Assembly: GCF_003334385.1 (NCBI RefSeq)
Contig: NZ_QOWN01000060.1
Direction: 5' to 3' (one strand)
Origin: Escherichia coli
Lineage (GTDB): Bacteria; Pseudomonadota; Gammaproteobacteria; Enterobacterales; Enterobacteriaceae
DNA length: 21,020 nucleotides
Below the pieces are notes generated by a model that made no database searches, was not told the DNA's origin, and saw only the letters and a list, made by a program, of their open reading frames with translations. Within the stretch, counting starts at the first letter, position 1. Each line of letters starts with the position of its first letter. The translations under genes were made by a program, and so were the position numbers. Shown here in pieces: positions 14,359 to 14,523 of the stretch.

Positions 14359-14478
14359 TTGTTAATTACGTACACTCTGTTACAGAGATGTGATGGTGTC
14401 TTTAATTAAATCGATGATGCTCCTGGAGAAAAGCATTGCGTGGCCTCGTAATCGCTATATCTACTATTATGTCGCCTG

Positions 14479-14503
14479 AAACCCACTTCGCGGTGGGTTT
14501 TTT
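14479..14503 (+). terminator. Rho-independent terminator in the gap upstream of the tape measure gene
   Basis: AAACCCAC (14479-14486), loop TTCGCG, GTGGGTTT (14493-14500), with the T-run continuing to 14503 (TTTTTTGTTG). Confidence 0.6.
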
Positions 14504-14523
14504 GTTGTCAGGAGTTTTAATAA

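What the first reader, a model, noticed from the sequence alone, without database searches (positions are those of the whole stretch)
14359..14523. A 165-bp non-coding gap with palindromes and an intrinsic terminator immediately upstream of the tape measure gene
Seen in sequence: between the end of the GT frame (14358) and the tape measure start (14524) there is a gap where lambda has none. It contains a perfect palindrome CTCTGT-T-ACAGAG (14375-14387), a possible 28-codon mini-ORF (14393-14479, no clear RBS) and a good terminator (14479-14503, 8-bp stem plus T6) ending about 20 nt before the tape measure RBS. Inference: this could attenuate tape measure transcription, mark the 3' end of a small RNA, or be an insertion scar at a module junction.
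Basis: seen in the sequence. Interest (0 to 1): 0.5.

Follow-up and report, generated by a model that had tools for sequence, protein, structure and literature searches.

The report
Gene-less accessory slot with conserved terminator
The 165-base gap before the tape measure gene of this Rac-type E. coli prophage is a shrunken, apparently gene-less version of the site where related phages carry extra "moron" genes, closed by a transcription terminator kept in nearly all relatives examined; it is a fairly ordinary phage feature.

Summary
The window is an intact Rac-type lambdoid prophage, and the gap is 100% identical to the K-12 ydaY–ynaA spacer.

**The terminator is real.** The stem is 14478-14501, followed by T6, 22 nt before the tape measure (TMP) ATG.
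- A hairpin plus T-run sits at the same place in all 32 distinct upstream sequences from about 100 loci with a homologous TMP.
- The stems differ by compensatory changes.
- It is also present at two cargo-free junctions.

**The junction is an accessory-gene slot.** The distance from the T stop to the TMP start ranges from 39 nt to more than 2.8 kb in relatives. Cargo includes a Lom-like protein, putative lipoproteins and membrane proteins. This is the position and layout of the HK97 gp15 moron.

**The 120 nt ahead of the Rac terminator show no sign of a gene.**
- There is no promoter-like site above background and no ribosome-binding site.
- The mini-ORF's ATG is ATA in half of the variants, and it has no homologues.
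- The spacer resembles no other cargo.
- The palindrome is at chance level.

**Most likely reading.** This is a degenerate slot plus a resident intra-operon terminator. The terminator would be read through by Q-antiterminated polymerase in lytic growth and would block stray transcription in the lysogen. Attenuation or an sRNA is not excluded. Interest is low to moderate.

The parts
14038..14358 (+). Left border. Slippery heptamer A_AAA_AAG (14038-14044) and the -1 frame T extension of the tail assembly chaperone, ending at TAG 14356-14358. Homology to Lom-carrying relatives breaks near 14338, just before the T stop.
   Evidence: Sequence reading. T frame open from 14044 to 14358. G = phrog_313, T = phrog_1189. 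T 3' ends of relatives compared.
14359..14477 (+). Orphan non-coding spacer of about 120 nt, GC 0.395. It sits where relatives carry cargo genes. No promoter-like site, no ribosome-binding site and no similarity to any other slot content.
   Evidence: Promoter scoring at most 6.6 bits, equal to the window background. No similarity to other slots. Nothing in 50,697 phage records beyond near-identical Rac-type copies at E<=5. No exact 25-mer in the species-representative genomes. GC content.
14375..14387 (.). Perfect palindrome CTCTGT-T-ACAGAG. It is at chance level and not conserved.
   Evidence: 34 such palindromes in the window, or 0.27 per 165 nt. A14386C breaks one arm in L012 and L018. A related palindrome lies at 14238-14254, but the pattern count is within chance.
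14393..14479 (+). 28-codon mini-ORF (MVSLIKSMMLLEKSIAWPRNRYIYYYVA). Probably not a gene.
   Evidence: SD energy at background level. ATG is ATA in 7 of the 15 sequences compared; the other changes are one synonymous and one non-synonymous. The only database relatives are the same locus, including stop-loss and frameshift variants. Absent from the K-12 Ribo-seq sORF table held. No similarity to HK97 gp15.
14478..14507 (+). Rho-independent terminator. 5' arm 14478-14487, loop TCGC, 3' arm 14492-14501, T6 at 14498-14503, then GTTG. Most other Rac-type copies lack C14489/G14490, which gives a C(UUCG)G tetraloop.
   Evidence: Terminator scan. Fold -15 kcal/mol, z = -2.3. Alleles. Same position in all 32 distinct relatives. 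Covariance-model hits at E<=5e-8 in all 34 sources. 5 of 8 pairs show changes on both sides, 87.6% of cells are paired, and slid controls are much lower.
14508..14526 (+). Tape measure translation start region. SD AGGAG at 14510-14514 and ATG at 14524. It is homologous to the (A/G)TTGCCCGGAGAAAGGTAAATG leader of relatives.
   Evidence: Alignment A2. SD energy -6.9 kcal/mol. TMP = phrog_24.

Best explanation
The gap is the accessory-gene ('moron') slot between the tail chaperone frameshift product GT and the tape measure gene of a Rac-type lambdoid prophage, in a reduced and apparently gene-less state. It has two parts.

**A resident intrinsic terminator**
- It sits about 22 nt upstream of the tape measure start and belongs to the conserved right border of the slot.
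- Inferred mechanism in the repressed prophage: it stops transcription coming from upstream, such as cargo promoters in relatives, spurious starts or read-through, from running into the tape measure and distal tail genes.
- Inferred mechanism in lytic growth: polymerase modified by the phage's Q-like antiterminator reads through it. The hairpin may additionally trim downstream mRNA levels or protect the upstream V-G-GT message.

**About 120 nt of orphan DNA between the T stop and the terminator**
- It has no promoter, ribosome-binding site or conserved ORF.
- It is most likely the residue of lost cargo, or filler.

**Shown:** the anatomy, the conservation and covariation of the terminator, the variability of the slot, and the lack of gene signals in the Rac version.
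**Inferred:** the direction of evolution (loss of cargo) and what the terminator does in vivo.
For: **Identity of the locus**
- 100% identical to Salmonella phage SPF_0923 and to the K-12 Rac ydaY-ynaA spacer.
- Present at >=95% identity in 1046 of 5426 complete E. coli genomes.

**Slot variability**
- The distance from the T stop to the TMP ATG is 39, 163-165, 416, 500 and upward to 2801 nt, and more than 3000 nt in some, among about 100 loci with a homologous TMP.
- Cargo includes a Lom-like outer membrane protein (phrog_108, 2.6e-46), predicted lipoproteins, zinc-ribbon membrane proteins and a phrog_129 regulator-like protein.

**The terminator is resident**
- A hairpin plus T-run lies at a fixed distance from the ATG in all 32 distinct upstream sequences.
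- The same ACCTCGC/GCGGGGT type follows at least 7 different last cargo genes.
- It is present at two cargo-free junctions, L077 (39 nt) and Erwinia phage Gungnir39 (45 nt, TMP 35% identical).
- Covariation: 5 of 8 pairs change on both sides, with 15 such cells against 3.9 in shuffles; slid controls give at most 7.

**Contrast with relatives**
- Eight slot classes have a position-conserved promoter-like element, TTGyCn-16-TGnTAnnnT, 9-36 nt after the T stop, scoring 8.4-10.3 bits.
- The best site in the Rac gap scores 6.6 bits, which is background.

**Archetype and context**
- HK97 has GT, then gp15, then an annotated terminator 12 nt before the TMP start.
- A Q-like antiterminator (phrog_753, 2e-79) lies upstream of the lysis and structural genes in an intact Rac-type prophage with the same gap.
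- Terminator-like or stable hairpins occupy 5 of the 6 intergenic gaps longer than 25 nt in this operon.
- Intra-operon terminators in lambdoid late operons are a recognised feature whose role is not known (10.1101/2020.10.05.325894).
Against: - There are no expression data for an intact, induced Rac-type prophage.
- K-12 Term-seq tables list no 3' end at the terminator. This is uninformative, because transcription from trkG appears to stop near 1425351, far upstream.
- The terminator is retained at cargo-free junctions. That fits a role in the phage's own expression programme (attenuation or mRNA stability) at least as well as an insulator role.
- The 120-nt spacer is less polymorphic than third-codon positions of the flanking genes: 4 of 119 sites against 11-21%. 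That could mean constraint, although it lies inside a wider low-diversity tract, 14230-14930.
- 'Remnant of cargo' is not backed by any detectable homology.
- The covariation alignment was fitted to the structure by the covariance model, and the loci are phylogenetically related.
Confidence: 0.6

Rival explanations
1. Programmed attenuator or mRNA-stability element of the late operon. The terminator ends, or marks a stable 3' end for, a fraction of late transcripts after V-G-GT. The tape measure and distal tail genes, needed in few copies, then receive less mRNA than the tube and chaperone genes. The 120-nt spacer is just a 3' UTR.
For: - The terminator is kept with compensatory changes even where there is no cargo to insulate (L077 and Gungnir39).
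- Similar hairpins follow the minor head, major capsid and tail tube genes in the same operon.
- HK639 has an annotated terminator after its gene 13, in the tail gene region.
- The phage L genome paper lists partial termination as one possible role of intra-operon terminators.
Against: - A Q-like antiterminator is present, and Q-modified polymerase is expected to ignore intrinsic terminators (established lambda biology).
- There is no measurement of termination efficiency.
- HK639, a more distant relative, has no terminator at the T/TMP junction.
- This reading is not exclusive of the main explanation.
Confidence: 0.22
2. The gap encodes a small regulatory RNA. It would be either an independent transcript or a 3'-end fragment of the GT message, ending at the terminator. 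The AU-rich stretch 14455-14472 plus the U-tail would act as an Hfq-type module.
For: - Strong terminator with a U-tail, preceded by an AU-rich segment.
- Low polymorphism in the spacer.
- A moderately stable predicted fold, z = -1.7.
- The sequence is kept at >=95% identity in 1046 E. coli genomes.
Against: - No promoter-like site above background.
- No Rfam match apart from a 24-nt terminator-only hit at E=1.5.
- No curated 3' end in K-12 Term-seq in three growth conditions.
- No diverged homologues, so structure or seed conservation cannot be tested.
- The low diversity extends into the flanking coding DNA.
- An IS1 is inserted in the spacer in one strain.
Confidence: 0.1
3. The mini-ORF 14393-14479 (or a GTG-initiated version from 14390 or 14396) encodes a small moron protein analogous to HK97 gp15.
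For: - It is an open frame ending exactly at the foot of the terminator, the same position as gp15.
- Some annotation pipelines called it as a gene (P0001).
Against: - No SD: -2.9 kcal/mol against a background of -2.7.
- ATG is ATA in 7 of the 15 sequences compared. Stop-loss and frameshift variants exist.
- No homologues among 5.8 billion proteins apart from the locus itself.
- Not hydrophobic, and not similar to gp15.
- Absent from the K-12 Ribo-seq sORF table and from the microproteome tables held.
- No promoter.
Confidence: 0.05

Closest known systems
HK97 gp15 moron (Juhala et al. 2000; Cumby et al. 2012; reviewed in PMC3594210)
   Same: - Same position, between the tail chaperone frameshift product and the tape measure gene.
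- Same layout at the right edge: an intrinsic terminator (ACCCGC-TATCAA-GCGGGT plus T8) ending 12 nt before the TMP ATG.
- Extra DNA compared with relatives whose two genes are nearly adjacent.
   Different: - HK97 has a 62-codon gene with a strong SD that encodes a membrane superinfection-exclusion protein, and a promoter-bearing left flank.
- The Rac gap has no promoter-like site, no SD and no credible ORF, and its mini-ORF is unrelated to gp15.
- The HK97 TMP was not found among relatives of this TMP, so the resemblance is in architecture, not demonstrated homology.
Intra-operon Rho-independent terminators of lambdoid late operons (for example phage L and P22-like phages; 10.1101/2020.10.05.325894)
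   Same: - A predicted intrinsic terminator inside a single long late operon that depends on a Q-type antiterminator, placed at a module boundary.
- The same two candidate roles apply: partial termination, or stopping non-antiterminated transcription.
   Different: - Here the terminator is shown to be conserved in position, with compensatory stem changes, across a TMP family.
- It also forms the right border of a cargo slot. The phage L paper does not address those points.
Lom/Ail and lipoprotein morons in the tail regions of lambdoid prophages
   Same: Close relatives of this very prophage carry a Lom-like gene (178-185 aa), with its own promoter-like site and terminator, in exactly this slot. 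These are L014 and L019-L022, whose TMP is 92-96% identical.
   Different: The window's version lacks the gene, and its spacer shares no detectable sequence with those modules.

Membership tests
Moron (Hendrix/Juhala sense; archetype HK97 gp15) | Extra DNA between two genes that are adjacent in related phages | tested here: met
   The gap from the T stop to the TMP ATG is 39 nt in L077 and 45 nt in Erwinia phage Gungnir39, against 165 nt here.
Moron (Hendrix/Juhala sense; archetype HK97 gp15) | Own promoter allowing expression from the repressed prophage | tested here: not met
   The best + strand sigma-70-like score in 14230-14480 is 6.6 bits, equal to the window background; the top coding-region sites reach 11.8 bits. 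Relatives have a position-conserved site of 8.4-10.3 bits. This is a consensus scan only, with no transcription start data.
Moron (Hendrix/Juhala sense; archetype HK97 gp15) | Terminator at the downstream end | tested here: met
   Stem 14478-14501 plus T6. However, the terminator belongs to the conserved TMP-side border rather than to the insert.
Moron (Hendrix/Juhala sense; archetype HK97 gp15) | Carries a functional gene | tested here: not met
   No SD. The start codon is lost in half of the variants. No homologues. No Ribo-seq entry in the table held.
Moron (Hendrix/Juhala sense; archetype HK97 gp15) | Base composition differing from neighbours | tested here: inconclusive
   GC is 0.395 against a mean of 0.483 (sd 0.054), which is the lowest 4% of 119-nt windows. 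That is also typical of any intergenic DNA.
Rho-independent terminator | GC-rich stem, short loop, 3' U-tract | tested here: met
   8 Watson-Crick plus 2 G-U pairs, a 4-6 nt loop (UUCG in most alleles), and T6-T8.
Rho-independent terminator | Structure maintained by selection | tested here: met
   87.6% of cells paired. 5 of 8 pairs change on both sides. 0 of 500 shuffles reach the observed covariation score, and slid controls are lower. Caveat: the alignment was fitted by the covariance model and the sequences are related.
Rho-independent terminator | Terminates transcription in vivo or in vitro | not testable with these tools
   K-12 Term-seq tables show no 3' end at 14262xx-14264xx, but transcription seems to stop upstream at the trkG terminator.
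Hfq-type or 3'UTR-derived sRNA | Discrete transcript with its own promoter or processing site | tested here: inconclusive
   No promoter-like site. No curated 3' end in K-12. Induced, intact prophages were not examined.
Hfq-type or 3'UTR-derived sRNA | Membership of a described RNA family | tested here: not met
   The Rfam search at E<=10 gave only a 24-nt match to the terminator end of sroH (14.7 bits against a gathering score of 80).
Small protein gene | Ribosome-binding site, conserved start and frame, homologues | tested here: not met

The most novel reading that the evidence does not exclude
In this tape-measure lineage the GT/TMP junction works as a fixed 'expression socket'. It has a conserved promoter-like left border and a structurally conserved terminator as its right border, and unrelated cargo is swapped between them. 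Under the most novel reading, the Rac version carries non-coding cargo. The 120-nt spacer plus terminator would be released as a small RNA, either by termination of non-antiterminated transcripts or by processing of the late message, and would act in the lysogen or during induction.
Probability: 0.1. Interest if true: 0.55.

Novelty: new member of a known kind. Interest (0 to 1): 0.3.

Why it matters
- It explains an unannotated spacer found in K-12 (ydaY-ynaA) and in about a fifth of complete E. coli genomes. The spacer is the reduced form of a moron slot, not a hidden gene.
- It gives comparative evidence that the intra-operon terminator in front of the tape measure gene is under selection. 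Compensatory changes are seen, and the terminator is present at cargo-free junctions. The role of such terminators in lambdoid late operons is still described as unknown.
- It marks the GT/TMP junction of this Klebsiella/Escherichia prophage lineage as a place to look for new prophage accessory genes. Most of the cargo found here has no known function and matches no PADLOC model.
- None of this overturns current understanding.

Tried and rejected
- **ynaM.** I recalled that the small protein YnaM might lie here. It does not; it maps between ynaE and ttcC.
- **Natural mosaic joint inside the gap.** Hit H50 covered only the right part of the gap, but it turned out to be an IS1 insertion or rearrangement in strain ET734.
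- **Spacer as remnant of known cargo.**
  - Local alignments against 14 slot classes were not significant (p mostly >0.2), and only the terminator and leader align.
  - blastn against phages at E<=5 found only near-identical Rac-type copies.
  - An exact 25-mer was absent from the species-representative genomes.
- **Mini-ORF as the C-terminal stump of a longer protein.** A search with the 37-residue open frame, padded with X, found only the locus itself.
- **Palindrome as an operator.** It is at chance frequency and is mutated in some lineages. The second, larger palindrome at 14238-14254 shares a half-site, but the pattern count is within chance.
- **Low polymorphism of the spacer as evidence of constraint.** The trough spans 14230-14930, including coding DNA, so it is not specific to the spacer.
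- **SD-sequestering helix CCUGA/UCAGG around the terminator.** It is broken in L011 and L108-L110, so it is not conserved.
- **Covariation count on the plain MAFFT alignment of terminators (A2).** The stems were misregistered, so I used a covariance-model alignment instead.
- **Other K-12 datasets.** The Thomason TSS, Dar & Sorek, Conway, Choe and RIL-seq papers were either not held or had no supplementary files held as text.
- **Known defence systems in the cargo.** There were no PADLOC hits.

Full report
**1. What the window is**

The region matches Salmonella phage SPF_0923 at 100% and a set of induced E. coli phages at 98% or more. The 191 nt around the gap occur at >=95% identity in 1046 of 5426 complete E. 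coli genomes, including K-12. In K-12 it is the spacer between ydaY (b1366) and ynaA/tmpR (b1368) of the cryptic prophage Rac. Near the gap, the K-12 coordinate equals the window coordinate plus 1,411,930.

The window is therefore an intact Rac-type lambdoid prophage. Its order is trkG, a ParB-like gene, terminase, portal, head genes, tail tube (12578-13540), G (13589-14050), T, tape measure (14524-17757), then M, L, K and I. No record annotates anything inside the gap.

**2. The observation**

- G ends at 14050. An A_AAA_AAG heptamer lies at 14038-14044, and the -1 frame stays open to the TAG at 14356-14358.
- G is a tail assembly chaperone (phrog_313) and the downstream ORF is a tape measure protein (phrog_24).
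- The 165-nt gap is the largest in the structural operon.
- The terminator was found by the scan: stem 14478-14501 with T6. It folds at -15 kcal/mol, z = -2.3.
- The palindrome exists but is unremarkable. The window holds 34 perfect 6-bp-arm palindromes with 0-4 nt spacers, or 0.27 per 165 nt. One arm is mutated in two lineages.
Its SD/anti-SD energy is -2.9 kcal/mol against a background median of -2.7. Real genes have a median of -5.5, and TMP scores -6.9.

**3. Relatives show that the junction is an accessory-gene slot**

I fetched about 100 loci from viral contigs that encode a homologous tape measure N-terminus at 37-100% identity. In each I located the T stop and the TMP start.

The distance between them takes many values: 39 nt (L077), 163-165 (Rac type), 416, 500, 518, 531, 635-681, 763-797, 897, 949, 1056, 1189, about 1300, about 1500-1585, 1783, 1897, 2217, 2311, 2564 and 2801 nt, and more than 3 kb in some loci.

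The inserts encode the following:
- a Lom-like outer membrane protein (phrog_108, 2.6e-46) in very close relatives of the window's phage;
- several different proteins with lipoprotein-type signal sequences (inferred from L-x-G-C motifs);
- membrane proteins with a CPxC...CxHC motif;
- a phrog_129 regulator-like protein, and others of unknown function.

None matches a PADLOC defence model.

This is the position at which HK97 carries the first-described moron, gene 15 (PMC3594210). In the HK97 record, GT ends at 8145, gp15 runs 8203-8391, an annotated terminator lies at 8398-8422 and the tape measure gene starts at 8435.

**4. The terminator is a resident, selected feature of the right border**

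- In all 40 distinct 90-nt upstream sequences (32 distinct at 55 nt), a GC-rich hairpin followed by a T-run sits about 20-25 nt before the TMP ATG. A conserved leader follows it, (A/G)TTGCCCGGAGAAAGGTAAATG; in Rac it reads GTTGTCAGGAGTTTTAATAAATG.
- The stems differ. The types seen are AACCTCGC/GCGGGGTT, AACCCGC/GCGGGTT, AAACCCAC/GTGGGTTT (Rac), GGCCCCGC/GCGGGGCT, ACCCAGC/GCCTGGGT, GCCGC/GCGGC and GGCCGCG/CGCGGCT.
- A covariance model built on them found the element once per locus, at E<=5e-8, in all 34 sources searched.
- On the resulting alignment, 87.6% of cells pair and 5 of 8 pairs carry changes on both sides. There are 15 such cells against 3.9 in shuffles, with 0 of 500 shuffles reaching the observed value. 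Sliding the 3' partners by 1-3 columns gives much lower values. The alignment is fitted to the structure and the sequences are related, so this is supportive rather than conclusive.
- The same ACCTCGC/GCGGGGT terminator follows at least seven unrelated last cargo genes, so it travels with the TMP side and not with the cargo.
- Two cargo-free junctions still have it. These are L077 (T stop, GCCCGG-CATGT-CCGGGT, ATTTTTAT, SD, ATG) and Erwinia phage Gungnir39, whose TMP is only 35% identical (AAACCCGC-CAGC-GCGGGTTTTT).
- The more distant HK639 (29% identical) lacks a terminator there. It has an annotated one after its gene 13, upstream of the gene that precedes the tape measure gene.
- Within Rac-type copies the hairpin is kept. 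Most alleles lack C14489/G14490, which gives a C(UUCG)G tetraloop. The T-run varies from 6 to 8, and a few strains carry weakening substitutions.

**5. The left border in relatives, and what Rac lacks**

In eight different slot classes, a promoter-like element lies at the same place, 9-36 nt after the T stop. Its form is TTGyCn, 16 nt, TGnTAnnnT, and it scores 8.4-10.3 bits in a simple position-weight scan. The Lom modules have a TTGACT...TATTTT site. Some relatives also have a terminator directly after T, so their cargo is bracketed by two terminators.

In the window, the best + strand site anywhere from 14230 to 14480 scores 6.6 bits. About 80 positions in the window's coding DNA reach that level.

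The 120-nt spacer resembles no other slot content. It matches nothing else in 50,697 phage records even at E<=5. In E. coli genomes it is found essentially only at this locus: 1048 places in 1046 genomes.

**6. Is the mini-ORF or an sRNA real?**

The mini-ORF:
- The open frame runs from 14366 to 14479. A search of 5.8 billion proteins returned only this locus, including a stop-loss variant and a frameshift variant.
- Among the 15 Rac-type sequences compared, the ATG is ATA in 7. The other two changes are one synonymous and one Pro-to-Leu.
- The ORF is absent from the K-12 Ribo-seq sORF table held and from the Enterobacteriaceae microproteome tables held, some of which are truncated.
- It is unrelated to HK97 gp15.

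An sRNA:
- No Rfam family matches.
- The whole gap folds with z = -1.7.
- The curated K-12 Term-seq 3'-end tables (three growth conditions) contain nothing at 14262xx-14264xx.
- That negative result has limited weight. The same study's Rho table flags 1425351(+), at the trkG terminator, so little transcription probably reaches the gap in K-12.
- The spacer has few polymorphisms, 4 of 119 sites against 11-21% at third-codon positions of the flanking genes. The trough extends from 14230 to 14930, so it is not specific to the gap.

**7. Context for the mechanism**

An intact Rac-type prophage with an identical gap carries a Q-like antiterminator (phrog_753, 2e-79) upstream of its lysis genes, in lambda-like order.

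Terminator-like or very stable hairpins occupy 5 of the 6 intergenic gaps longer than 25 nt in this late operon:
- after trkG (1834-1857);
- after the minor head protein (8693-8712, UUCG loop, T6);
- after the major capsid gene (10791-10804, UUCG loop, T5);
- after the tail tube gene (13552-13580, 12 bp, no T-run);
- after GT.

The phage L genome paper states that such intra-operon terminators occur in lambdoid late operons and that 'their roles are not known'. It suggests partial termination, or stopping transcription that initiates without antitermination.

**8. Conclusion**

The finding is real, but it is best read as a reduced, gene-less accessory slot at the HK97 gp15 position, closed by a resident and structurally conserved intrinsic terminator. 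I commit, at about 0.6, to the following:
- The terminator blocks non-antiterminated transcription from entering the tape measure and distal tail genes in the prophage state.
- Q-modified polymerase passes it during lytic growth.
- The 120-nt spacer has no function of its own.

A role as a partial attenuator or mRNA stabiliser is a serious and non-exclusive rival (about 0.2). An sRNA (about 0.1) and a peptide (about 0.05) are less likely.

The feature is a new member of a known kind. The lineage-wide view may be of modest interest to phage genomicists: a conserved promoter-like left border, swapped cargo, and a covarying terminator that is present even at empty sites.

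Noticed in passing
window 13552-13580: A very stable 12-bp hairpin (-22 kcal/mol, z = -4.1) without a T-run lies in the 48-nt gap after the tail tube gene. Its 3' arm (GGGGGA) is the Shine-Dalgarno sequence of the G chaperone gene, so it could both protect the tube mRNA's 3' end and limit G translation.
   Followed up: partly
window 8693-8712 and 10791-10804: Terminator-like hairpins with UUCG tetraloops and T5-T6 tails lie directly after the minor head protein gene and after the major capsid gene. Together with those after trkG and GT, they fill nearly every intergenic gap of the late operon.
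   Followed up: partly
window 272-1860: trkG (GC 0.378 against 0.48 for the phage) sits between the lysis and packaging genes, with its own strong hairpin at 1834-1857. In the K-12 data, a Rho-score site at 1425351(+) coincides with this hairpin.
   Followed up: partly
window 14238-14254: A perfect 8-bp-arm palindrome, TATCTCTG-A-CAGAGATA, lies inside the T coding region. It shares the half-site CAGAGAT with the gap palindrome 134 nt downstream. The pair is within chance by the shuffle test, and conservation was not examined.
   Followed up: partly
L046, L088, L098, L106 (about 30-65 nt after the T stop): In relatives, the 5' leader of the lipoprotein cargo genes forms a hairpin, GTTTCyG-ATTGTAATCA-CrGGAAAC, overlapping the SD. 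It shows a compensatory T:A to C:G change between loci, which suggests translational control of the cargo.
   Followed up: no
L024 1104-1240; L029 2501-2750: After a terminator that directly follows T (GCCTCGG...CCGGGGCTTTTTTAT), these loci share a conserved non-coding stretch of about 130-250 nt (ACCCGCAACAAATCG...GAGTCTGAGACAGGGCGGTGG...) ahead of different cargo genes. Its nature is unknown.
   Followed up: no
L079 and L105 slots (2564 and 2801 nt): The larger inserts carry a conserved gene set: a 258-267 aa protein (phrog_17809), a 131 aa protein (phrog_5176) with an R-x4-H-like 'NEADYH' motif reminiscent of HEPN, and an oppositely oriented 153-158 aa gene (phrog_3983). None matches PADLOC. 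This could be an uncharacterised toxin-antitoxin or defence module.
   Followed up: partly
L035 (E. coli ET734, NZ_CP100922.1), equivalent to window ~14447: An IS1 element interrupts the gap in this strain, and the tape measure gene is fragmented. This shows that the spacer tolerates disruption in a decaying prophage.
   Followed up: yes
window ~14839, minus strand (K-12 1426769): The Adams et al. Rho-termination table lists a minus-strand, Rho-dependent 3' region antisense to ynaA. That implies antisense transcription across the 5' part of the tape measure gene in K-12.
   Followed up: no
window 14365-14336, minus strand: The best promoter-like site near the gap points leftward: TTAACA-18-GAAAAT, 8.2 bits, antisense to the end of T. 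Whether it is used is unknown.
   Followed up: no
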